A stretch of DNA of 64,000 bases from a virus: the UHGV virus genome UHGV-0307316; one strand, given 5' to 3'. This document shows, one piece after another, positions 22,793 to 63,704 of this stretch. The notes below the pieces were generated by a model. That model saw only the letters and a list, made by a program, of their open reading frames with translations. It did not search any database and was not told where the DNA came from. The stretch's first letter is position 1. Every line of letters starts with the position of its first letter. Both the position numbers and the translations under genes were made by a program.

Positions 22793-22987
22793 ATGCCTAC
22801 AATCCTAGCAATTCTTCTAAAAAATCTAGGTAGCTTCTTCTGGAAACTCATTTTATCCCTTCTAAGTGAATACATGATTGAGAAAGTGTTCTTTAAGCTT
22901 GCAAGATATCTTGCGAGTAAAACAGACACACCTATTGATGATGAGTTCGTAGATAACTTAGAAAAAGCTTTTAAGGGGGAGAAATAA
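22793..22987 (+). CDS. Small hydrophobic protein (function unknown)
   Basis: 64 aa with hydrophobic N-terminal segment; follows tail fibers. Confidence 0.3.
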   Translation: MPTILAILLKNLGSFFWKLILSLLSEYMIEKVFFKLARYLASKTDTPIDDEFVDNLEKAFKGEK

Positions 22988-23359
22988 ATGAAGTGGCTAG
23001 AGGAAGCTTTTAAAAATAATATTGGTGCAATTGTAGTTGGTATTTTTAGTGTTATTGGGATGTATACCACCATGCAAGTTTCAAGTGGTAAACAAGAAGT
23101 GTCTGTCACAACAAAGTTACAGCAGCTAGATAATTATTCAAAAAGTAACTATTCAGCTATTCATGATTTACAGTCTGACATGAGATTGATTCAGCTAGGG
23201 ATGGAGAACCAGAAAGTTCAGTTAGAGAATGTTAAGGGCGAAAACGCAAAACTTACCAAAACTCTTGATAAATTCTCTGACAGTGTAAATAATCTGGCTC
23301 AATCAGTATCAGCCCTCCAAGCTATTACTGAGAAGAACACAAAGAATACTGAAAAATAA
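22988..23359 (+). CDS. Membrane-anchored coiled-coil protein (function unknown)
   Basis: N-terminal TM helix (IGAIVVGIFSVIGMY) then coiled-coil-like sequence; last gene of + block 1. Confidence 0.3.
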   Translation: MKWLEEAFKNNIGAIVVGIFSVIGMYTTMQVSSGKQEVSVTTKLQQLDNYSKSNYSAIHDLQSDMRLIQLGMENQKVQLENVKGENAKLTKTLDKFSDSVNNLAQSVSALQAITEKNTKNTEK

Positions 23360-46998: not shown

Positions 46999-47240
46999 TG
47001 ACTTATGTAATTTACTCCAAAACTGGATGCCCTCAGTGCGAGACTGCAAAGAATTTTGCAAAAGCTCGTGGTATTGACCATGTTGTGAGAATGTTAGGGC
47101 AGGACTATGAACTATCAGACCTGATTGATATTGCACAGATGCCAGTTCGTCAGATGCCATTCATCATGAAAACTGATGGGCAAAACCTAAAACCTGTTGG
47201 TACGCTACAGAATTTTATGGCAGAGGTGAATAATGCTTAA
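46998..47240 (+). CDS. Glutaredoxin/NrdH-like redoxin
   Basis: N-terminal CPQC active-site motif in an 80 aa protein; coupled to nrdB. Confidence 0.6.
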   Translation: MTYVIYSKTGCPQCETAKNFAKARGIDHVVRMLGQDYELSDLIDIAQMPVRQMPFIMKTDGQNLKPVGTLQNFMAEVNNA

Positions 47241-47439
47241 ACGCATTTGGGAAGGTTTGTTTGTTGATGCACCAGCTATTGTGATTGGTATGCTTATCGT
47301 TAACCTATTTACTGACTTTGAACAAGGTTCATTGTTTGGAGCCATGTTACTATGGGTTATCTTCGAAATATTAGAGATACAGTTAGGTATCACTGAAAAA
47401 CTAAGAGAACTCTTTGCGAAGTTTTCTAAAAAGATTTAA
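47233..47439 (+). CDS. Small membrane protein
   Basis: 68 aa with hydrophobic helices. Confidence 0.3.
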   Translation: MLKRIWEGLFVDAPAIVIGMLIVNLFTDFEQGSLFGAMLLWVIFEILEIQLGITEKLRELFAKFSKKI

Positions 47440-49786: not shown

Positions 49787-49987
49787 ATGTTTAAGATATC
49801 AAAAGCGTTGATATACATACTCCATATTCTAGTCTTCTTCTTTGGGGTTAGTGTTATGGTATGGGGTTTTTCAGACCCACAATGGAGTTTCTCATATCAT
49901 GGTCAGATGGATTTATGGTCATGCTTCAAACCATTTTTAGGGTTAGTCATAGCATTCAGTGCATTACCAACTAAGGTGAAATTATGA
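49787..49987 (+). CDS. Small membrane protein
   Basis: 66 aa, two hydrophobic segments. Confidence 0.3.
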   Translation: MFKISKALIYILHILVFFFGVSVMVWGFSDPQWSFSYHGQMDLWSCFKPFLGLVIAFSALPTKVKL

Positions 49988-55993: not shown

Positions 55994-58360
55994 ATGCGCA
56001 TGGTAAATGACCACGCAGAAGTGATTAAGAGTTCAACTTCTTTAGAGACGTCTCAAGCACAGATTACAATGACACCTGAGATGTTCAGCCTTTTGAGTTC
56101 TGGTGTATATACCTTTAAAGAAAGGGCAGTGATTCGTGAACTGTCATGTAACGCAGTAGATGCTCAGAAAGAAGCTGGAAAAGAGAACATCCCATTCCAT
56201 GTGCATTTACCTACTCGTTTTGAGCCTTACTTCGAAGTTCGTGATTTTGGAACTGGATTGACTCATGATAAAGTTATGAGTTTGTACCTAAACTATGGAG
56301 CTTCTACGAAGAATGACTCTAATGACTACATTGGTGCAATGGGTATCGGCTCAAAGTCACCATTTGCAATTGCTCAGTCATTCACAGTATCTAGTTATGT
56401 TGACGGTGTTGTTAATAAGTACTCTGTTTATCTTGAGAATGGTATCCCTCAAGTAACTAAGCTGACAACTAACCAAACAAAAGAACCTAATGGTTTAGCT
56501 GTACGTGTGGCAGTTGCTGACCACCGTATCTCAAAGTTCTTTGAAGAAGCTGGGAATGTGTACTCATACTTCACTGTAAAACCAGAAAGTAATATTGAGT
56601 ACGACGATGTATTAGCAGATATGAACGTAATTGCCCGTGAAGAAGGTGTTTATGATGCCATGATTCATAAGCACAGCTGGCGTTCTAGTGATAACAGGAC
56701 AGAGTTTAATGTGGTGATGGGTAACATTGCCTATCCAGTGAACATGGAAGCGTTACTTGGTGATGATTTCTTCAAAGTCTTGCCAGAGTTTTTCCGTAGG
56801 AGCGTAGACCTTGTAAACATCTACATGCCTATTGGTTCAGTTGCTATTGCAGCTTCTCGTGAAGCATTGCAGATGAATGACACGACAAAAAATGTTATCA
56901 TTGAGGCTACTAAAAAGATAACTGAAGCAATTACAAAGGATGTTATCAAGAAAGTTAATAGCCAACCTACACTCATGGATGCTGCACAGGCTTATGCTGA
57001 GTTACGTTTGAACTCACGAGAGATGTTTAATGCTGTGTGTCCAAAGCTAGAGTGGGGTGGCGTTAAGCTTGATTCTCTGGAAGAAGAATTGCTAAACATT
57101 CGTCGTGGAATTATCTACGCAGAAGACGGCTCAGTCATTTATGAACGTGATGGTAAAGGCAATATTAAGGTTGATAGGAACGGGAACAATATACCTAAAG
57201 TAGATTATCTTTATGACCCAGTTGCTTATGTCAAGTTCAACTCTTTAGAGAGTAAGATTCGTGCAACATCGCTTTCCTACACTCAAGAGGCAAGTATGTT
57301 CAATATCTTTGGTGCAATGCGTAAAAGCCAAATTGAACAGTTTTTGTTCGTGATTAATGACCGTCGCAATAAAAATGGTACTGAGAAGACTGTAGGCCGC
57401 AATCAGATTCTGCGTGGTGCATGTCGAGACTACGCCAGTGAGTCAAGTCTGTTTCACAGATACAATGGTATTGTGTTTGTATTCTCGACTGAAAAAGAGT
57501 TAGACGACCTAATCAATCTACACAAACTTGATAAAAGCTTGTTAAAGATTGTGAAAATGTCTGATAAGGAGCACCATTACCAGCGCAAAGAAGCTGTAAG
57601 GGGTGTTGTAAAACTCTGGAAAGCTGTTCCAGCAGAAGGTGTAGCTTCCTATAAAGAGGTTTCAGAGGACTTAGACACAATTGAAGAACCTCAGCTTTAC
57701 ATTAAGGCAATTGGTGACACAGTTGATGGTGAATGTTTTTGCTCATCCCCAGAAGATGTAGCTAAGTCAGTTGCTAATGTTATTGGAAAGACAGTCTATG
57801 TTTTCCGAAAAGCAAATTGGAAAAAGATACCAGAAGACTGGATTGAAGTAGATGAGAAGCTCTTGAACGACAGCTTAACTGATGTTCATTGGATTAATCA
57901 TAACAGGTATACGACACGCATCTACATGAATGGTGTTCTTGACCTTACAAGTAGCTGGATTATTGCCAGAAACTTTACGTTCAATAACAGGAAGATTTCT
58001 CGTGGCTATTGCTATTCACGGGATACAAACAAAACTATCTTCCTAGAAGGTAATGAAGAGGCTGTAGAGGCAATGTTTGGTAAAATCCAGTATGTTGCTG
58101 CACCATTTGCATACACTTACACTATTAGTGTGTTGAAAACTTTGAAAGATTGTCTTGACAACGATACAAAGCTTTACAAGAAAATTAAGAAAGCTGGTGA
58201 CCGTATGGTTATTAAGGTGACAAACTACCTTTCAAAAAGAAAACAAGAAAACTTCTTGCTTTCTCATTTAGATTGGAATAAAGTGTCACCCATCGAAGTG
58301 AGTAAGTTCTTAGGTTTTGATGTGAAGTGTGTTCCAGAAGGAACTACAGTTTACGATTAA
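55994..58360 (+). CDS. rIIA-like protein with N-terminal GHKL-type ATPase domain
   Basis: Bergerat-fold motifs: N-box ELSCNAVDA (ExxxNAxDA), G1 box DFGTGLT, G2 box GAMGIGSKS; ~790 aa as for rIIA-family proteins. Confidence 0.5.
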   Translation: MRMVNDHAEVIKSSTSLETSQAQITMTPEMFSLLSSGVYTFKERAVIRELSCNAVDAQKEAGKENIPFHVHLPTRFEPYFEVRDFGTGLTHDKVMSLYLNYGASTKNDSNDYIGAMGIGSKSPFAIAQSFTVSSYVDGVVNKYSVYLENGIPQVTKLTTNQTKEPNGLAVRVAVADHRISKFFEEAGNVYSYFTVKPESNIEYDDVLADMNVIAREEGVYDAMIHKHSWRSSDNRTEFNVVMGNIAYPVNMEALLGDDFFKVLPEFFRRSVDLVNIYMPIGSVAIAASREALQMNDTTKNVIIEATKKITEAITKDVIKKVNSQPTLMDAAQAYAELRLNSREMFNAVCPKLEWGGVKLDSLEEELLNIRRGIIYAEDGSVIYERDGKGNIKVDRNGNNIPKVDYLYDPVAYVKFNSLESKIRATSLSYTQEASMFNIFGAMRKSQIEQFLFVINDRRNKNGTEKTVGRNQILRGACRDYASESSLFHRYNGIVFVFSTEKELDDLINLHKLDKSLLKIVKMSDKEHHYQRKEAVRGVVKLWKAVPAEGVASYKEVSEDLDTIEEPQLYIKAIGDTVDGECFCSSPEDVAKSVANVIGKTVYVFRKANWKKIPEDWIEVDEKLLNDSLTDVHWINHNRYTTRIYMNGVLDLTSSWIIARNFTFNNRKISRGYCYSRDTNKTIFLEGNEEAVEAMFGKIQYVAAPFAYTYTISVLKTLKDCLDNDTKLYKKIKKAGDRMVIKVTNYLSKRKQENFLLSHLDWNKVSPIEVSKFLGFDVKCVPEGTTVYD

Positions 58361-58439: not shown

Positions 58440-59549
58440 ATGACTACTAAAACTAAAGCACAGATTGACGCAGAAATTTACAAACTGGTTAAAGAAGGTA
58501 AGCTGACTAAAACAGCTATTGCACAGAAATTTAATACTTCAACCCGTTCAGTCGGTCGTGCTGTAGAGCGTCATGAAGCAACATTAAAAGGGAATAAGAA
58601 GGTAACTTCTACACCAGCTACGAAGACTTTGAAGCAAGTTGCTAAGACCTTTAAAAAGAAAGCTGACAAACCAGTTGAAAAGGTTGTTAAAGATTCTGTA
58701 CAGAAAGCTCCAGTAAATAAACTGCACGAAGCTATGCAGAAAGATGACAAGATTGAGTACATGATTACTGGCGACTCTGTAATTATGACTTACGGTTCAG
58801 AATCTGAAATTGTTGAGTCTACTCATCCGAACTATCAAGAGATTGTAGTTCATGTTGTGAAAGGTGAGTTCAAGAAAGCCTTTGAACTGATGAACATTCG
58901 TAAGTCTATCGAAAACTTCACGCAGGGAGCTATCACAATCAAAGGTGATAAGCTATTCTACGGTGCTGTTGAGATGCGTTCTACTCTGGTTGACCGTATC
59001 CTTCACATGATGAAGACTGGTGATAAAGGTTTTGAACGACTTGTAATGTTCTTCGAAAAACTGATGGAAAACCCATCTAAAGATTCTGTAGAACAACTTT
59101 GGGGATTCATATCTCACCTTGATGTTGAAATTGATGAAGAAGGCTACATCATTGGTTGGAAGAAAGTCTCTACTCGTGAAGGCAAGCTGGTTGACTCCCG
59201 CACCTGCAAAGTACCTAATGATTTGGGTAACATTGTAGAAATGCCACGTTGGATGGTTGATAATAACCGTAACGTGACTTGCTCTCAAGGTCTTCACGTT
59301 GGTGCTTGGGATTATGTTCGTTACTTCTCAGGTGATACAATTCTGAAGGTTCGTGTCCATCCACGAGACGTTGTATCCGTACCAACTGATTACAACGATA
59401 TGAAGATGCGCTCGTCTCGTTATGAAGTTGCAGCAATCGTTGATAATCAACGTAAAGTACTGAAAGCATGGGATGGCAAGACTGAAGCTTTGCATGTCAT
59501 CGTTGGCACTGCTGGTGAACTTATCTCTGAGCGTAAACGTGAAATCTAA
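58440..59549 (+). CDS. Putative rIIB-like protein (by position after rIIA-like gene)
   Basis: 369 aa ORF immediately after rIIA-like gene; Lys-rich N-terminus; no diagnostic motif. Confidence 0.3.
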   Translation: MTTKTKAQIDAEIYKLVKEGKLTKTAIAQKFNTSTRSVGRAVERHEATLKGNKKVTSTPATKTLKQVAKTFKKKADKPVEKVVKDSVQKAPVNKLHEAMQKDDKIEYMITGDSVIMTYGSESEIVESTHPNYQEIVVHVVKGEFKKAFELMNIRKSIENFTQGAITIKGDKLFYGAVEMRSTLVDRILHMMKTGDKGFERLVMFFEKLMENPSKDSVEQLWGFISHLDVEIDEEGYIIGWKKVSTREGKLVDSRTCKVPNDLGNIVEMPRWMVDNNRNVTCSQGLHVGAWDYVRYFSGDTILKVRVHPRDVVSVPTDYNDMKMRSSRYEVAAIVDNQRKVLKAWDGKTEALHVIVGTAGELISERKREI

Positions 59550-59566
59550 TAAGTAATTTCTTAAAA

Positions 59567-59588
59567 GGCTGCTTCGGCGGCCTTTTTT
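59567..59588 (+). terminator. Rho-independent terminator (UUCG tetraloop family)
   Basis: GGCTGC-TTCG-GCGGCC followed by TTTTTT. Confidence 0.6.
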
Positions 59589-59649
59589 ATTTGTATTTTG
59601 TGCAGAGTGCTGTATAATTGTTGTCACGATAAACTAAACAGGAGAACCA

Positions 59650-60198
59650 ATGAAGAAATTGATTCTAGGTTTGTGCTTAATGTTTACAGCACACTTATCT
59701 TATGCAGTTGACTGCCCAGAGCTATCAATTAGCCAAAAAGTAAACATGTTAAAAGCTTACCAGTATGGTGAGAACAACATGGGTAAAGGTTGGGGTATCA
59801 CTCTAGCTGCTATAGCCTTACAAGAGTCAGAGTTAGGTCTGAAGGTAGAGAATAAAAAGACACATGATTATGGTATTTTCCAGAATCACTTGAAGACTGT
59901 TGTAAAGCGTAACAAAATTAGTCCTAATATGGCTAAAAAGAAACTCTTAAAAGACTTTAACTATGCTGCGAAGGAAACTCACAAAGAGCTTGAGTTTTGG
60001 ACAAAGGTGCATGGTCAGCCAAAGTCAAAGAAGACTTTACAAAAAGTTTTAGCATCATATAATGCTGGGTATTCGTACAAAATCCCTAAAGCTAAGAAAT
60101 ATTCTCAAGATGTCTATAACAACATGAAAGTCATTGCTCAATGTGAATTTGCAACAAACATTTCTAAGGTAAACCATGAAAAAATTAAAAAAGTCTGA
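59650..60198 (+). CDS. Lytic transglycosylase (SLT domain) with signal peptide; candidate endolysin
   Basis: Signal peptide MKKLILGLCLMFTAHLSYA; SLT motifs QESEL (ES), DYGIFQ (GLMQ-like), SYNAGYS (AYNxG). Confidence 0.7.
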   Translation: MKKLILGLCLMFTAHLSYAVDCPELSISQKVNMLKAYQYGENNMGKGWGITLAAIALQESELGLKVENKKTHDYGIFQNHLKTVVKRNKISPNMAKKKLLKDFNYAAKETHKELEFWTKVHGQPKSKKTLQKVLASYNAGYSYKIPKAKKYSQDVYNNMKVIAQCEFATNISKVNHEKIKKV

Positions 60199-60871
60199 TG
60201 AAGTACTGTGTCATGCTTACGACTTACATCCTCATGAGTTAGGTCTTGATTCCTGTGTATGGACTCCAGAACAGTGTAGGGATTTTGAAGACACTGCAAG
60301 AGAAGTTGTATGCTCACTCGAAGAGTTCCACACATCAGAGCCAATTGTGAATGTTGTAGATAAAGAGACTGGACAAACTATAGGTGTAAGTCGTGATAGC
60401 TTAGTCATAGTCAATAAAGACCTTGTAGAAAAAGGTAACCTCATCTTAGCAGATATTGATGGTGTTCTTACAAATTTTAATCACGAAGATTGCTCAACGG
60501 AATTGACTGATGGGTCATTCTCACAGTACACTAATCTTCTTGACTCTGTAAGAGCAAAACCAACGTATGTCTTTAGTATTATTGATGCAATTGCTAATCA
60601 TGCTGCCATTGGACTCTTGACAGCGAGAGGTGAATCTCAGAGAATACCTACTGAGATGTTTTTAAGGCACAATATAGAGCATGATTACTTGCTTTTTATG
60701 CGTGGTTTTGGAACTAACTCTATAAGTGCAGAAAGTTTGAAAGTGAGGATGATTCAGTCTTGCATTCTTCCTTACTTTAATATAGTATGTTTTATAGAAG
60801 ATACAGAGAAGAATGTTCAGAAGGTAAACAGAATCCTTCCACACATTAAAACCATGTTAGTTAAACACTGA
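60176..60871 (+). CDS. HAD-like hydrolase domain protein (putative phosphatase)
   Basis: HAD motif I-like LILADIDGVLT, motif II-like LLTARGE, acidic motif CFIEDTEKN; N-terminal extension unusual. Confidence 0.35.
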   Translation: MKKLKKSDEVLCHAYDLHPHELGLDSCVWTPEQCRDFEDTAREVVCSLEEFHTSEPIVNVVDKETGQTIGVSRDSLVIVNKDLVEKGNLILADIDGVLTNFNHEDCSTELTDGSFSQYTNLLDSVRAKPTYVFSIIDAIANHAAIGLLTARGESQRIPTEMFLRHNIEHDYLLFMRGFGTNSISAESLKVRMIQSCILPYFNIVCFIEDTEKNVQKVNRILPHIKTMLVKH

Positions 60872-60880
60872 GAGAAACTT

Positions 60881-61345
60881 ATGAACAATATCATTACGGT
60901 AGCACTGGACGTTACAGCAAACAAATCTGAAGTAGTTCGTAACATTATCAAGAGCAACTTTGAAGGTAAAATCTTCCGTGCTGTCAATGTAAAAGCAGAC
61001 GGTAACATCCGGGAGTATCGTGCTCTTCTGAATGTTAAGAAACACGTAAAAGGTGCTGGTTCAACGACTGCACACAAAGAAAACCTGATGACTATCTATG
61101 ATATGGGTATGGCTTCAGAGTTAGGTACTGAAGGTATCGTTAAAGAAGGTGCTCCGTATCGCTCTTTCAATCTGGAAACTGCTCTTATGCTTTCCTTTAC
61201 AAGTGGTTCTAAAACAACTACTTATCTCTTTACTGATGCTGCAACGGTATCTGCTATCAAGGATAGCACCGTCAAAGCTGGGGTAGCTGCTGCTGCAAAA
61301 GCTTCTTCGATGGCTGCAAATGTCCTTGCTAAAGTCCTCGGTTAA
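60881..61345 (+). CDS. Hypothetical protein
   Basis: 154 aa ORF. Confidence 0.3.
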   Translation: MNNIITVALDVTANKSEVVRNIIKSNFEGKIFRAVNVKADGNIREYRALLNVKKHVKGAGSTTAHKENLMTIYDMGMASELGTEGIVKEGAPYRSFNLETALMLSFTSGSKTTTYLFTDAATVSAIKDSTVKAGVAAAAKASSMAANVLAKVLG

Positions 61346-61357
61346 GGTTAAGATACA

Positions 61358-61380
61358 GGCTCCTTCGGGAGCCTTTTTCA
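61358..61380 (+). terminator. Rho-independent terminator (UUCG tetraloop family)
   Basis: AGGCTCC-TTCG-GGAGCCT followed by TTTTT. Confidence 0.6.
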
Positions 61381-61397
61381 TTTCAGGAGATTGTTAA

Positions 61398-61745
61398 ATG
61401 ACATTTAAAGAGTTCTGTCAAGCTACTTTCATAATTGTTTTCTTAGTTGGGGCAGGTGTCTGGGGAGGATACTCTTACAGAGACTATCAAGTTGCTGAAG
61501 TTGAGCTAAATAATGAGAAACTAATAAGTGTTGCCAAAGATGCTTATCAGGAAGGTTTAGCCACACTGAGCACCAATTACAAAAATGATTTGAAAGATGT
61601 GCTTGCTAAGAATAAGCATACAAAAGAGGTACTAACGTATGAAAAGACTAAGCCAGAGTTTTATAATGTTTGTGTTACTGATAATTATGTCAGGGTGTTC
61701 AACGAACAAAGTGAGCAGTACATTCAAAAACTCCCAAGTAAGTGA
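61398..61745 (+). CDS. i-spanin (Rz-like, putative)
   Basis: N-terminal TM helix (FIIVFLVGAGVWGGY) then coiled-coil periplasmic domain; lipoprotein ORF begins inside its 3' end. Confidence 0.5.
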   Translation: MTFKEFCQATFIIVFLVGAGVWGGYSYRDYQVAEVELNNEKLISVAKDAYQEGLATLSTNYKNDLKDVLAKNKHTKEVLTYEKTKPEFYNVCVTDNYVRVFNEQSEQYIQKLPSK

Positions 61746-61908
61746 GAGTGATAAGTACACTCAAGAAGAATCACGGTATATCATCAAAGGCAACACAGGC
61801 AGCGATGTAGCAGCAGCCCTTGAGTTCTATCGTGACGGCTTTTACCAGTGCACAATCAAAGCTAACAACCTTATTGACATGATTTTATTAGGGAATAAGC
61901 AGCAATGA
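61639..61908 (+). CDS. o-spanin (Rz1-like lipoprotein, putative), overlapping the i-spanin gene out of frame
   Basis: Signal peptide with lipobox (LLIIMSGC); starts within 61398-61745 in a different frame. Confidence 0.5.
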   Translation: MKRLSQSFIMFVLLIIMSGCSTNKVSSTFKNSQVSESDKYTQEESRYIIKGNTGSDVAAALEFYRDGFYQCTIKANNLIDMILLGNKQQ

Positions 61909-62918: not shown

Positions 62919-63704
62919 ATGGGTATTGTAAAAATCATCAATGGTGATATCTTTGCTGCATTTGATAAAGGTAAGTTTGACATCATTGGTCATGGTTGTA
63001 ACTGCATGAACCTAATGGGCGCAGGTATCGCTGACAAGATTTCTAAACTTTACCCAAAAGCATATGAGACCGATACAGAAGTTTATCTCTATGCAGGTGG
63101 TATAGGTCACAAACCCTGTGAGAATTTACTAGGTAATTTCTCTGTAGCACGCTTAAAACAAGGTCGTATAGCTAACCTTTACACTCAGCTTAAGACTGGT
63201 AAAGATGCCCGATACAGTGCTTTAGAGTCATCTTTGAAGCAACTTAACAGATACTGTGAAGTTAATCAGTTGAAGAAAGTTGGTTTACCTATGATTGGTG
63301 CAGGTATCGGTGGACTTGACCCTCAAGCCGTCACAGTTATCATCAATCAGGTGATGAAGAGTGTAGATGTTTATCTATATGTCTATGAAGGAGAGATGTA
63401 CCACAAGTTACTCTCAGGTTGGAAGAACTACTGTGAACCAGAATACTTTGCAGGTGTAGCAGTGTTCACAGATAACGCAGTTACCCTCTTCAGACGAAGA
63501 AAAGGTAAGATACATCAAAGTAACCCTCCGGTTGAAAAGATGTCTCTAAGTAACGCTCTAGTTACCCACCTGTCAAAGAGCAATCACAGAATTGCTGTAA
63601 CATTTGGTAGTGATGCAGAAGCTTATATCTATGCAAGAACTGATGAGGATATTGAGGCAATCTTCTCTTCACCAGAAGTTACCTTCTTAGACGCAAAGAA
63701 CTAA
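62919..63704 (+). CDS. Macro-domain protein (TARG1/DarG-like ADP-ribosyl hydrolase, putative) with C-terminal unknown domain
   Basis: N-terminal 140 aa resemble TARG1-type macro domains: GDIF...IGHGCNCMNLMGAGIA and GLPMIGAGIGGLD. Confidence 0.5.
   Translation: MGIVKIINGDIFAAFDKGKFDIIGHGCNCMNLMGAGIADKISKLYPKAYETDTEVYLYAGGIGHKPCENLLGNFSVARLKQGRIANLYTQLKTGKDARYSALESSLKQLNRYCEVNQLKKVGLPMIGAGIGGLDPQAVTVIINQVMKSVDVYLYVYEGEMYHKLLSGWKNYCEPEYFAGVAVFTDNAVTLFRRRKGKIHQSNPPVEKMSLSNALVTHLSKSNHRIAVTFGSDAEAYIYARTDEDIEAIFSSPEVTFLDAKN

What the first reader, a model, noticed from the sequence alone, without database searches (positions are those of the whole stretch)
59650..61908. Lysis cassette: signal-peptide SLT transglycosylase plus overlapping spanin pair, with no obvious holin
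The SLT-domain protein (ES, GLMQ-like and AYNxG motifs) has a cleavable-looking signal peptide, implying Sec-dependent export. Downstream an i-spanin-like type-II membrane coiled-coil protein (61398-61745) overlaps out of frame with a lipoprotein (61639-61908, lipobox IMSGC), the classic Rz/Rz1 arrangement. No canonical holin lies between them; the intervening genes are a HAD-like hydrolase and an unknown protein.
Basis: partly seen in the sequence, partly recalled or inferred. Interest (0 to 1): 0.35.

Follow-up and report, generated by a model that had tools for sequence, protein, structure and literature searches.

The report
Felix O1-type spanins plus exported transglycosylase
This stretch of a Felix O1-like phage genome holds an already catalogued pair of outer-membrane-disrupting "spanin" genes and a secreted cell-wall-cutting enzyme related to phage T4 Vs.1, but it is not a self-contained lysis cassette, because the phage's main lysozyme and putative holin lie elsewhere in the genome.

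Summary
The window is a Felixounavirus genome, 95-98% identical to many deposited phages. There is a 182-aa protein with a short cleavable-type signal peptide and ES / YGIFQ / SYNAG motifs. There is a HAD-type (PseT-like) phosphatase and a conserved unknown 154-aa protein. There is also a type-II membrane protein whose 3' end overlaps, in the +1 frame, a lipoprotein gene.

The spanin pair is real: the lipobox ORF is conserved across three phage genera, and the overlap shows a dual-coding constraint. It is also already known: Felix O1 is listed among overlapped spanins in SpaninDB, and relatives carry i-/o-spanin annotations.

The "lysis cassette without a holin" reading does not hold. Felix O1-like phages scatter their lysis genes. 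A soluble GH24 lysozyme (Felix gp35) lies outside this window. A putative class III holin lies at window 22988-23359.

The SLT-like protein is Felix O1 ORF3, a homologue of T4 Vs.1 (phrog_600). This is a Sec-exported GH23 family found in about 2,100 phage records. Where checked (radambza/Felix O1), it sits beside a separate endolysin, as it does in T4 (gene e, from memory). Its function has never been tested. It is most likely an accessory periplasmic lytic transglycosylase, not the endolysin. Ordinary and already annotated; low interest.

The parts
55994..58360 (+). rIIA homologue (context; gene 1 of Felix O1)
   Evidence: 788-aa ORF. Annotated rIIA in relatives.
58440..59549 (+). rIIB homologue (context)
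   Evidence: phrog_609 'RIIB lysis inhibitor', 7e-89. Annotated rIIB in relatives.
59563..59592 (+). Rho-independent terminator after rIIB (Felix O1 't2')
   Evidence: 10-bp stem, then a T-tract. The sequence is identical to t2 in Table 2 of PMC3185647. The stem is conserved in Mooglevirus, which differs at one stem position (GGCAGCC for GGCGGCC, turning a T-G pair into T-A).
59591..59618 (+). Candidate sigma-70-type promoter for the SLT gene: TTGTAT-N16-TATAAT (inferred)
   Evidence: Read from the sequence. The perfect -10 and its position are conserved in four phages, and the -35 is TTGAAA in 3HA14. It was not listed by the consensus scan because the -35 matches only 3 of 6. Inference only.
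59650..60198 (+). Vs.1-family Sec-exported GH23/SLT-like enzyme (Felix O1 ORF3). The signal peptide is 59650-59706; the predicted mature protein starts at V20.
60176..60871 (+). PseT-like HAD 3'-phosphatase. It has no kinase P-loop and overlaps the SLT gene by 23 nt.
   Evidence: phrog_3970, 2.7e-134. Residues 84-219 match only the phosphatase part of PNK profiles. The DIDGVLT motif is visible in the sequence. A distant homologue carries a faint HAD_PNKP hit.
60881..61345 (+). Conserved 154-aa protein of unknown function (Felix O1 ORF5)
   Evidence: phrog_2267, unknown function. No Pfam hit. Homologues at 54-99% identity; the named and long-contig hits are Felix O1-like (Ounavirinae) phages. 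No TMD.
61357..61379 (+). Rho-independent terminator (Felix O1 't5') abutting the i-spanin ribosome-binding site
61398..61745 (+). i-spanin (type II inner-membrane protein; TMD at residues 6-24; periplasmic Cys92)
   Evidence: phrog_1152 'Rz-like spanin', 1.5e-41. AGGAG lies 8 nt upstream of the start. 407 phage records hold a homologue, including Mooglevirus, Kolesnikvirus and Kuravirus. C92 is invariant. Felix O1 ORF6.
61639..61908 (+). o-spanin (outer-membrane lipoprotein; lipobox MSG|C20; Ser at +2; second Cys71)
   Evidence: Annotated O-spanin in Meda and others. The AAGAGG RBS is visible in the sequence. The lipobox ORF and the C-terminal LE(F/W/Y)(Y/W)(R/Q)D..(Y/F)..C motif are conserved in Kuravirus and Kolesnikvirus. 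The frame shows an excess of synonymous changes, and the overlap evolves at half the rate of the flanks.
22988..23359 (+). Putative class III holin (Felix O1 gp79 homologue), far from the finding. One N-terminal TMD and a helical periplasmic domain of about 90 aa.
   Evidence: 98% identical to radambza_20 'holin'. TMD at residues 11-31. Called 'putative class-III holin' in PMC4591319. Listed as a holin candidate in PMC3185647. PHROG gives unknown function, so the assignment is putative only.
22793..22987 (+).
   Evidence: phrog_402, unknown function. No 19-aa window with Kyte-Doolittle hydropathy above 1.6.
62919..63704 (+). Macro-domain protein (T4 Tk.4-like; context)
   Evidence: Pfam Macro, 1e-7, above threshold. 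The Felix O1 ORF13 note reads 'in tk-vs intergenic region'.

Best explanation
The region is the rII-proximal early/middle block of a Felix O1-like myovirus. It encodes four things:
1. A Vs.1-family enzyme. This is a single GH23 (SLT/goose-lysozyme-like) domain behind a cleavable Sec signal peptide. It is exported to the periplasm as a soluble protein and, in this lineage, stapled by a Cys22-Cys165 disulfide.
2. A PseT-like 3'-phosphatase, whose start overlaps the end of the SLT gene.
3. A conserved protein of unknown function.
4. After a terminator, an overlapped two-component spanin.

Lysis itself most likely follows the T4-like scattered scheme. A putative class III holin (window 22988-23359) permeabilises the inner membrane. 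A soluble GH24 lysozyme, encoded outside this window, then reaches and degrades the murein. The i-spanin/o-spanin complex encoded here finally fuses or disrupts the outer membrane.

The exported SLT-like enzyme is an accessory peptidoglycan-cleaving factor. It probably cuts glycan strands locally or at a low level, as the similar-sized Sec-exported 'specialised' transglycosylases of secretion systems do (EtgA, IagB). It is neither the gatekeeper nor the main executor of lysis.

Shown here: homology, motifs, fold, family-wide signal peptide, gene order, and reality of the spanin pair. Inferred: enzymatic activity, timing, and the accessory role.
For: Identity of the genome:
- 246 phage records cover at least 80% of the query stretch window:58400-63000, at 90-98% identity in nearly all of them.
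- The window is collinear with phage radambza.

SLT protein:
- It hits phrog_600 at 2.7e-57, the same family as T2 Vs.1 at 2.8e-68.
- BLASTP against T2 Vs.1 gives 32% identity, E 1e-16.
- The Felix O1 RefSeq note names ORF3 after the T4 vs-regB ORF.
- 2,129 phage records hold a homologue, including T4-like, Vi01-like, KVP40-like and jumbo phages.
- The catalytic Glu and the SYNxG motif are invariant.
- 45 of 57 relatives hit Pfam SLT.
- The fold matches GH23 enzymes. The best PDB sequence match is the type III secretion transglycosylase EtgA. Three relatives give weak IagB hits.
- 145 of 165 family members have a signal-peptide-like N-terminus, and most of the rest look like mis-called starts.
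- Cys22 and Cys165 co-occur in 33 relatives, are both absent in 24, and never occur singly. This pattern fits a periplasmic disulfide.

Separate endolysin and holin:
-.
- PMC3185647, PMC4319497 and PMC4591319.

Virions and timing:
- gp3 is not in the Felix O1 virion proteome.
- By RT-PCR, ORFs 3, 4, 6 and the lysin ORF35 all peak at 25 min.

Spanins:
-.
- Felix O1 is listed among overlapped spanins in PMC6139136.
Against: - No experiment on any Vs.1-family protein was found in the held literature. The only mention is a 2006 remark that vs.1 has marginal SLT similarity. Activity, localisation and phenotype are therefore all inferred.
- The window protein alone is below Pfam's SLT threshold.
- Foldseek E-values against the PDB are modest (0.008, TM about 0.5).
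- The holin assignment is by topology only. PHROG lists it as unknown function.
- The SLT gene peaks at the same RT-PCR time point as the lysin, so a direct part in lysis is not excluded.
- The signal peptide was judged by hand-made rules, not by a trained predictor.
Confidence: 0.75

Rival explanations
1. The SLT protein is the phage's (or a second) true endolysin. It is exported by Sec ahead of time and held inactive until the membrane is de-energised, as with signal-peptide endolysins such as Lys44 of Oenococcus phage fOg44, or SAR endolysins. Lysis from this locus would then need no canonical holin.
For: - It has a signal peptide and an intact catalytic motif.
- It lies within 1.2 kb of the spanin genes.
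- It peaks by RT-PCR at the same time point as the lysin ORF35.
- Some deposited records call it 'putative lysin'.
Against: - Complete relatives carry a soluble GH24 endolysin and a putative holin elsewhere (PMC4319497).
- The signal has a short 13-residue h-region and an AXA site. It does not have the roughly 20-residue Gly/Ala-rich uncleaved segment of a SAR domain.
- The family also occurs in T4. By established T4 genetics, recalled and not tested here, gene e mutants fail to lyse although vs.1 is present.
- The gene has its own sigma-70-like promoter in the rII early/middle block.
Confidence: 0.1
2. The SLT protein is a specialised transglycosylase that opens the murein mesh for a phage-built envelope-spanning structure. 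One candidate is threading or lateral movement of the spanin complexes encoded just downstream in what looks like one transcription unit. An alternative is remodelling of the sacculus to affect superinfecting phages.
For: - Its size, signal peptide and single GH23 domain are those of EtgA/IagB-type enzymes.
- No promoter fits between terminator t5 and the i-spanin RBS, so the spanins are probably read through from the SLT promoter.
- SLT, PNK and the spanins stay in one neighbourhood in three other Ounavirinae genera/records (Mooglevirus, Kolesnikvirus, Felix O1). A distant Ounavirinae-like metagenomic contig keeps rIIA-rIIB-SLT-PNKP, but no spanin was identified on it.
Against: - In T-even phages vs.1 lies between regB and vs, not next to the spanin genes pseT.3/pseT.2.
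- Kuraviruses have homologous spanins without an adjacent SLT gene.
- Lambda-type spanins need no such enzyme (established knowledge).
- There is no direct evidence for any partner.
Confidence: 0.12
3. The SLT protein is a virion-associated murein hydrolase used during DNA injection.
For: Many phage SLT domains are tail or internal-virion proteins. T2 Vs.1 gives weak PHROG hits to 'lytic tail protein' and 'internal virion protein' families.
Against: - A cleavable Sec signal would remove it from the cytoplasm, where virions assemble.
- It is not among the 17 Felix O1 virion proteins found by mass spectrometry.
- The word searches of the Bas63 cryo-EM paper found no mention of 'lysozyme' or 'lysin', and its only 'transglycosylase' refers to C. 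difficile bacteriocin hub proteins.
- The gene lies in the rII block, not among the structural genes.
Confidence: 0.02

Closest known systems
Phage T4/T2 Vs.1 (ORF between regB and vs; PHROG 600)
   Same: - Same PHROG family.
- 32% identity over 85% of the length, E 1e-16.
- Same length (181-182 aa).
- N-terminal signal peptide and ES / YG.FQ / SYN.G motifs.
- A Macro-domain (Tk.4-like) gene lies nearby in both.
- Function untested in both.
   Different: - In T-evens the gene sits between regB and vs. Here it sits between rIIB and a PseT-like phosphatase.
- T2 Vs.1 lacks the Cys22/Cys165 pair.
Specialised lytic transglycosylases of secretion systems (EtgA, PDB 8urn; IagB/IpgF)
   Same: - Roughly 150-190 aa with a Sec signal peptide, a single GH23 domain and a catalytic Glu-Ser.
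- Best PDB sequence match (E 3e-4).
- Weak IagB hits for 3 of 57 relatives.
   Different: - No secretion-system partner is encoded.
- The Asp in the beta-hairpin region (D73 here) is not conserved in the family.
- The Foldseek match to 8urn is weak (E 0.11).
Two-component spanins, overlapped class (for example P2 LysB/LysC; Felix O1 entry in SpaninDB, Kongari et al. 2018)
   Same: - A type II inner-membrane protein plus an outer-membrane lipoprotein.
- The o-spanin starts inside the i-spanin gene in the +1 frame and ends beyond it.
- Each partner has a periplasmic Cys.
- Felix O1 itself is listed as overlapped.
   Different: - This is not the embedded lambda Rz/Rz1 layout.
- The mature o-spanin has no proline, unlike the proline-rich lambda Rz1 (from memory).
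- It has a conserved structured-looking C-terminal motif.
- The pair is not next to a holin or an endolysin.
T4 scattered lysis genes (t, e, pseT.3/pseT.2, rI, rIIA/B)
   Same: - Holin, endolysin and spanins lie at separate loci (PMC3185647; PMC4319497; PMC6139136).
- The holin candidate has one TMD and a large periplasmic domain.
- The spanins are next to a pseT-type gene.
   Different: - The spanins here are overlapped, and no T4-type phage appears among the 30 listed of 407 i-spanin tblastn hits or in the organism tally.
- T4 spanins are separated, with 0 Cys in the i-spanin and 2 in the o-spanin.
- The holin candidate is 123 aa against 218 aa for T4 T (from memory).
Signal-peptide and SAR endolysins (fOg44 Lys44, P1 Lyz, phage 21 R)
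   Same: A muralytic enzyme exported by the Sec system independently of a holin.
   Different: - Those enzymes are the phage's lytic enzyme and sit in a lysis cassette.
- Here a separate soluble GH24 endolysin exists.
- The signal here is a short cleavable type, not a SAR anchor.

Membership tests
GH23 / SLT family-1 lytic transglycosylases | Catalytic Glu in an E-S motif at the end of a helix | tested here: met
   E59 is invariant in 57 of 57 relatives. S60 is present in 53 of 57.
GH23 / SLT family-1 lytic transglycosylases | G-L-M-Q-like and A-Y-N-x-G motifs | tested here: met
   The sequence has YGIFQ (G75 in 52/57; Q78 in 38/57, His in 17) and SYNAG (Y137 and G140 in 57/57; N138 in 55/57).
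GH23 / SLT family-1 lytic transglycosylases | Score above the Pfam PF01464 gathering threshold | tested here: not met
   The window protein scores 18.8 bits against 21.3. Homology is transitive instead: 45 of 57 relatives hit SLT with E<0.01 (best 8e-12). T2 Vs.1 scores 24.7 bits.
GH23 / SLT family-1 lytic transglycosylases | Lysozyme-like alpha-helical fold | tested here: met
   The AlphaFold model has pLDDT 85. The top Foldseek PDB matches are all GH23: g-type lysozyme, Ralstonia GH23 chitinase, Cj0843 and EtgA (probability about 1, TM about 0.5, E from 0.008). Viral SLT proteins match at TM 0.7, E 1e-9.
GH23 / SLT family-1 lytic transglycosylases | Non-hydrolytic cleavage giving 1,6-anhydro-MurNAc | not testable with these tools
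   This needs a muropeptide analysis of the purified mature protein.
T4 Vs.1 family (PHROG 600) | Full-length profile match and pairwise homology to T-even Vs.1 | tested here: met
   phrog_600 at 2.7e-57 over residues 1-170. T2 Vs.1 hits the same family at 2.8e-68. BLASTP E 1e-16. The RefSeq note supports this.
Sec-exported soluble periplasmic protein | n-region with K/R, short h-region, AXA-type site, no lipobox; conserved across the family | tested here: met
   MKK / LILGLCLMFTAHL / SYA|V. 145 of 165 relatives have a signal-peptide-like N-terminus by a hand-made rule. The Cys pair covaries. No trained predictor was available.
Two-component spanin (overlapped class) | i-spanin: N-terminal TMD, type II topology, periplasmic helical domain | tested here: inconclusive
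   The TMD at residues 6-24 is met, as is the phrog_1152 hit. The periplasmic helices are predicted only at low confidence (pLDDT 56). Coiled coil was not verified.
Two-component spanin (overlapped class) | o-spanin: lipoprotein signal with lipobox, and a non-Asp residue at +2 for outer-membrane sorting | tested here: met
   The sequence reads IIMSG|C-S. Lipoboxes are also present in the homologous frames of Mooglevirus, Kuravirus and Kolesnikvirus.
Two-component spanin (overlapped class) | o-spanin gene starts inside the i-spanin gene out of frame and extends beyond it; both frames are under selection | tested here: met
   The offset is 241 nt (+1 frame) and the overlap is 107 nt. The overlap diverges at 0.125 per nt, against 0.24-0.26 in the flanks. 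The o-only part shows a synonymous excess.
Two-component spanin (overlapped class) | At least one periplasmic Cys for intermolecular disulfides | tested here: met
   i-spanin C92 is invariant. The o-spanin C71 is conserved across genera. The rule comes from PMC6139136.
Two-component spanin (overlapped class) | Outer-membrane disruption, shown by complementation of lambda Rz/Rz1 amber mutants | not testable with these tools
   No experiment on Felix O1-type spanins was found in the held papers.
Contiguous holin-endolysin-spanin lysis cassette | Holin and the phage's endolysin adjacent to the spanins | tested here: not met
   No TMD protein lies between 59650 and 62500. The GH24 endolysin and the holin candidate are at distant loci. 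The literature says they are scattered.
SAR / signal-peptide endolysin systems | The exported enzyme is the phage's lytic murein hydrolase, and a SAR anchor (if present) is uncleaved and weakly hydrophobic | tested here: not met
   A separate soluble Phage_lysozyme is present in complete relatives (137 bits). The signal is short with an AXA site.

The most novel reading that the evidence does not exclude
The Vs.1 family may be a conserved, holin-independent, Sec-exported lytic transglycosylase. It is present in about 4% of deposited phage genomes: T4-like, Vi01-like, Felix O1-like, KVP40-like and chimallin-type jumbo phages. Large virulent myoviruses may place it in the periplasm well before lysis. 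Its purpose could be to pre-condition the sacculus: setting the abruptness or robustness of lysis, opening the mesh for spanin complexes, or altering the wall against superinfection. That would add an untested extra component to the holin-endolysin-spanin scheme.
Probability: 0.3. Interest if true: 0.5.

Novelty: already known. Interest (0 to 1): 0.2.

Why it matters
For genome annotation, the result is a correction. The locus is not a holin-less lysis cassette, and 'putative lysin' overstates what is known about the SLT-like gene.

The only open biological question it touches is the role of the Vs.1 family. This is a signal-peptide GH23 enzyme kept by thousands of large lytic phages, including T4, and it has no assigned function. 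T4 and Felix O1-type phages that infect E. coli K-12 are genetically tractable. A knockout with lysis-curve, muropeptide and superinfection assays would settle it cheaply.

Tried and rejected
- A single-sequence phmmer search of the SLT protein against PDB sequences found nothing meaningful. Only the family profile reached EtgA and g-type lysozymes.
- NCBIfam gave no family for the window protein.
- Pfam gave nothing for the phosphatase, the 154-aa protein or the spanins.
- The homologue search for the 154-aa protein returned 24 hits (54-99% identical) with no Pfam domain or functional name; the named and long-contig ones are Felix O1-like phages.
- The AlphaFold model of the i-spanin was too uncertain (pLDDT 56) to confirm a coiled coil.
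- Literature searches for any functional work on Vs.1 found only Nolan et al. 2006. A search for LysO1 found nothing.
  - 22793-22987 has no strong TMD but abuts the putative holin.
  - 47233-47439 has two TMDs.
  - 49787-49987 has one TMD.
  - All three fall in PHROGs of unknown function or generic 'membrane protein', so none can be called a holin.
- I first recalled that T4 spanins carry one Cys each forming a heterotypic bond. The paper shows 0 in the i-spanin and 2 in the o-spanin, with homotypic bonds, so that analogy was dropped.
- A lipoprotein reading of the SLT N-terminus (LGLC) was rejected. Position -1 is Leu, and Cys9 is not conserved.


Full report
**What the window is.** The 4.6 kb stretch window:58400-63000 around the finding matches 277 deposited phage genomes by megablast, and 246 of them cover at least 80% of it. 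Identity is 90-98% in nearly all of these. Almost all are Felixounavirus or other Ounavirinae of Escherichia, Salmonella, Shigella and Citrobacter. A whole-window BLAST against Escherichia phage radambza shows collinearity. The window corresponds to radambza 37096→1 and 86702→59831, reverse-complemented. It therefore lacks radambza 37097-59830, which holds the tRNA cluster and neighbouring genes.

**Checking the observation.**
- The 182-aa product of 59650-60198 starts MKK-LILGLCLMFTAHL-SYA|VDCPEL. This is a basic n-region, a 13-residue hydrophobic core and an AXA-type cleavage site, with no lipobox.
- It carries LQES, YGIFQ and SYNAG motifs.
- 60176-60871 overlaps it by 23 nt. It matches only the HAD phosphatase half of polynucleotide kinase/phosphatase profiles and has a DIDGV motif but no P-loop.
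- 60881-61345 has no recognisable domain.
- 61398-61745 has a single N-terminal TMD and hits the PHROG 'Rz-like spanin' at 1.5e-41.
- 61639-61908 starts 241 nt into that gene, in the +1 frame. It has an AAGAGG ribosome-binding site, the lipoprotein signal MKRLSQSFIMFVLLIIMSG|C, and Ser at +2.
- No membrane protein lies between these genes.

The layout is the 'overlapped' spanin class, not lambda's 'embedded' one. The coiled coil could not be verified: the AlphaFold model is helical, but pLDDT is only 56.

**Are the spanins real?** Yes.
- i-spanin homologues occur in 407 phage records, including Mooglevirus (76% identity), Erwinia Kolesnikvirus and the podovirus genus Kuravirus (26-37% identity).
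- In all three, the same out-of-frame position holds a lipoprotein ORF. After correcting start codons that were called too late in two deposited records, the signals read ...SLMSG|C...MSLSA|C and ...MTTAS|C.
- Each is followed by 'ST' and by a conserved C-terminal motif LE(F/W/Y)(Y/W)(R/Q)D..(Y/F)..C.
- Against three relatives, the doubly coding segment diverges at about half the rate of the singly coding flanks or less. For Mooglevirus the figures are 0.125 against 0.24-0.26 per nt. The o-spanin-only part shows a synonymous excess: 13:3, 6:0 and 24:17.
- Each partner keeps one periplasmic Cys. i-spanin C92 is invariant and o-spanin C71 is conserved across genera. This fits the rule that two-component spanins need an intermolecular disulfide (PMC6139136).
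- None of this is new. Felix O1 is listed among overlapped spanins in that survey. Many records annotate the pair. Felix O1 ORF6 is annotated 'Rz-like spanin'.

**Is it a lysis cassette lacking a holin?** No.
- The Felix O1 genome paper states that holin-lysin cassettes are absent. It says the lysin is gp35, with Phage_lysozyme and endolysin_autolysin domains. It says the holin, as in T4, is not adjacent to the lysin, and it lists gp79 among the holin candidates (PMC3185647).
- In radambza, the 154-aa lysin has no signal sequence and scores 137 bits on Pfam Phage_lysozyme.
- tblastn finds no copy of that lysin in the window, because its locus falls in the part the window does not cover.
- The protein annotated as holin is in the window, at 22988-23359 (98% identity). 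It has one TMD (residues 11-31) and a periplasmic domain of about 90 residues.
- Its PHROG is of unknown function, so the holin call remains putative.
The other two candidates are small membrane proteins with no functional assignment.

**What the SLT-like protein is.**
- Alone, it is below Pfam's SLT threshold (18.8 against 21.3 bits), and its PHROG (600) is of unknown function.
- A homologue search, followed by an exhaustive profile search, found 1,256 cluster representatives (603 at E<1e-10). Nearly all of the 150 listed are 150-270 aa.
- In an alignment of 57 relatives down to 26% identity, E59, G63, Y137, G140 and Y151 are invariant. S60, G75, W117, S136 and N138 are nearly invariant; Q78 is kept in 38 of 57 (His in 17). 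45 of the 57 hit Pfam SLT.
- The AlphaFold model (pLDDT 85) finds only GH23 folds at the top of the PDB list: g-type lysozymes, the Ralstonia GH23 chitinase, Campylobacter Cj0843 and EtgA.
- In the viral structure library it finds small phage 'SLT domain' proteins at TM 0.7.
- The best PDB sequence match of the family profile is the type III secretion transglycosylase EtgA.
- tblastn against phage genomes finds 2,129 records. They include T4, T2 and many other T4-like phages, where the match lies on 'vs.1'. They also include Vi01-like, KVP40-like and Aeromonas phages.
- A contig labelled 'Campylobacter coli' carries chimallin and is therefore a jumbo phage.
- T2 Vs.1 is 181 aa and has its own signal peptide and ES / YGMFQ / SYNSG motifs. 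It falls in the same PHROG and aligns at 32% identity, E 1e-16.
- The Felix O1 RefSeq record already labels ORF3 'hypothetical 20.7 KD protein in vs-regB intergenic region', which is T4 Vs.1.
[quoted passage not shown] No functional work turned up.

**Where it acts.**
- A signal-peptide-like N-terminus is present in 145 of 165 family members. Most exceptions look like truncated gene calls.
- In the alignment, the Cys after the cleavage site and a C-terminal Cys are both present in 33 sequences and both absent in 24. They never occur singly. This is the pattern expected of a structural disulfide in an exported protein.
- Felix O1 gp3 is not among the 17 proteins detected in virions, and no lysozyme or lysin is mentioned in the Bas63 virion cryo-EM paper.
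- The protein is therefore most likely a soluble periplasmic enzyme, not a virion component.

**Expression context.**
- The rIIB gene ends in a strong terminator (Felix 't2').
- Immediately after it lies TTGTAT-N16-TATAAT. The -10 is perfect and conserved, and the -35 is TTGAAA in Mooglevirus. This promoter is an inference.
- SLT, phosphatase and the 154-aa gene follow, then terminator 't5'. Its T-tract abuts the i-spanin ribosome-binding site, leaving no room for a promoter. The spanins are therefore probably expressed by read-through.
- RT-PCR in Felix O1 placed ORFs 3, 4, 6 and the lysin ORF35 in the class peaking at 25 min, and ORFs 2 and 5 in the class peaking at 10 min. Those data are coarse.
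- The order rIIA-rIIB-(x)-SLT-PNKP persists in a distant metagenomic relative at 36% identity. SLT-PNK...spanins-Macro persists in Kolesnikvirus.

**Best explanation.**
- Lysis follows a T4-like scattered scheme: putative class III holin, then soluble GH24 lysozyme, then the overlapped spanin pair encoded here.
- The Vs.1-family enzyme is an accessory, Sec-exported GH23 enzyme. It is probably a lytic transglycosylase, because it has a single conserved catalytic Glu and the hairpin Asp is not conserved. It would cut murein locally or at a low level.
- A periplasmic transglycosylase need not be lytic. Bacteria keep several in the periplasm, and the similar-sized specialised enzymes of secretion systems act locally (established knowledge).
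- Its exact role is unknown. I rate the accessory reading at about 0.75, a Lys44-like secreted endolysin at about 0.1, a role in opening the wall for spanins or against superinfection at about 0.12, and a virion enzyme at about 0.02.
- One argument rests on my memory of classical T4 genetics, not on a tool result: T4 e mutants fail to lyse despite carrying vs.1.

**Novelty and score.**
- The genome, the spanin pair, the scattered lysis genes and the Vs.1 homology of ORF3 are all in public records or papers.
- What this analysis adds is modest. Signal peptides and a covarying Cys pair characterise the family. There is dual-coding evidence for the spanin overlap. Two deposited o-spanin start codons were corrected.
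- The finding is ordinary. Interest is 0.2. The residual interest is that the Vs.1 family, widespread and present in T4, still has no tested function.

Noticed in passing
L010 2577-2939 (PP989838, Kuravirus) and L011 3709-3987 (PQ051114, Kolesnikvirus): The deposited o-spanin CDSs start too late and lack their lipoprotein signals. The open frame upstream encodes MRKLNQFFIMSALAMSLSA|C and MKRLFSLCFLTSVLVMTTAS|C.
   Followed up: yes
window 61357-61397: The T-tract of terminator t5 runs straight into the i-spanin ribosome-binding site. The spanin genes therefore seem to depend on terminator read-through for transcription.
   Followed up: partly
window 60176-60871: The gene annotated 'polynucleotide kinase' in relatives has only the HAD 3'-phosphatase half (DIDGVLT) and no P-loop kinase domain. 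In phage Meda it is split into two CDSs.
   Followed up: partly
phage records listed (for example MT074479, KM209228, MN895438, NC_070779): Vs.1 homologues in Ackermannviridae and in some T4-like phages are annotated 'RegB' or 'endoribonuclease'. This is probably a name carried over from the neighbouring T4 gene.
   Followed up: no
L005 (GCA_053226485.1, 'Campylobacter coli', 214.8-kb contig): This contig in a bacterial assembly encodes a PhiKZ-type chimallin and a Vs.1-like SLT protein, so it is a jumbo phage genome.
   Followed up: no
window 59650-60198 and 62919-63704; L008 (T2): Ounavirinae and T-even phages share a loose gene neighbourhood: rIIA, rIIB, Vs.1-like, PseT-like and Tk.4-like Macro phosphatase. 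In both groups the spanins lie next to a pseT-type gene, although no T4-type phage shows up among the listed i-spanin hits.
   Followed up: partly
window 59713-59715 (Cys22) and 60142-60144 (Cys165): The two Cys residues of the SLT family covary perfectly (33 both, 0 single, 24 neither). This points to an N-to-C-terminal disulfide staple that T-even Vs.1 lacks.
   Followed up: yes
L004 3503-3898 (radambza_59, outside the window): This CDS is annotated 'D-alanyl-D-alanine carboxypeptidase'. Its translation is acidic and shows no obvious peptidase motif, so the annotation looks doubtful.
   Followed up: no
window 47233-47439: A 68-aa protein with two predicted TMDs (class II holin-like topology) lies among the nucleotide-reductase genes. 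Its PHROG (4532) is of unknown function.
   Followed up: partly
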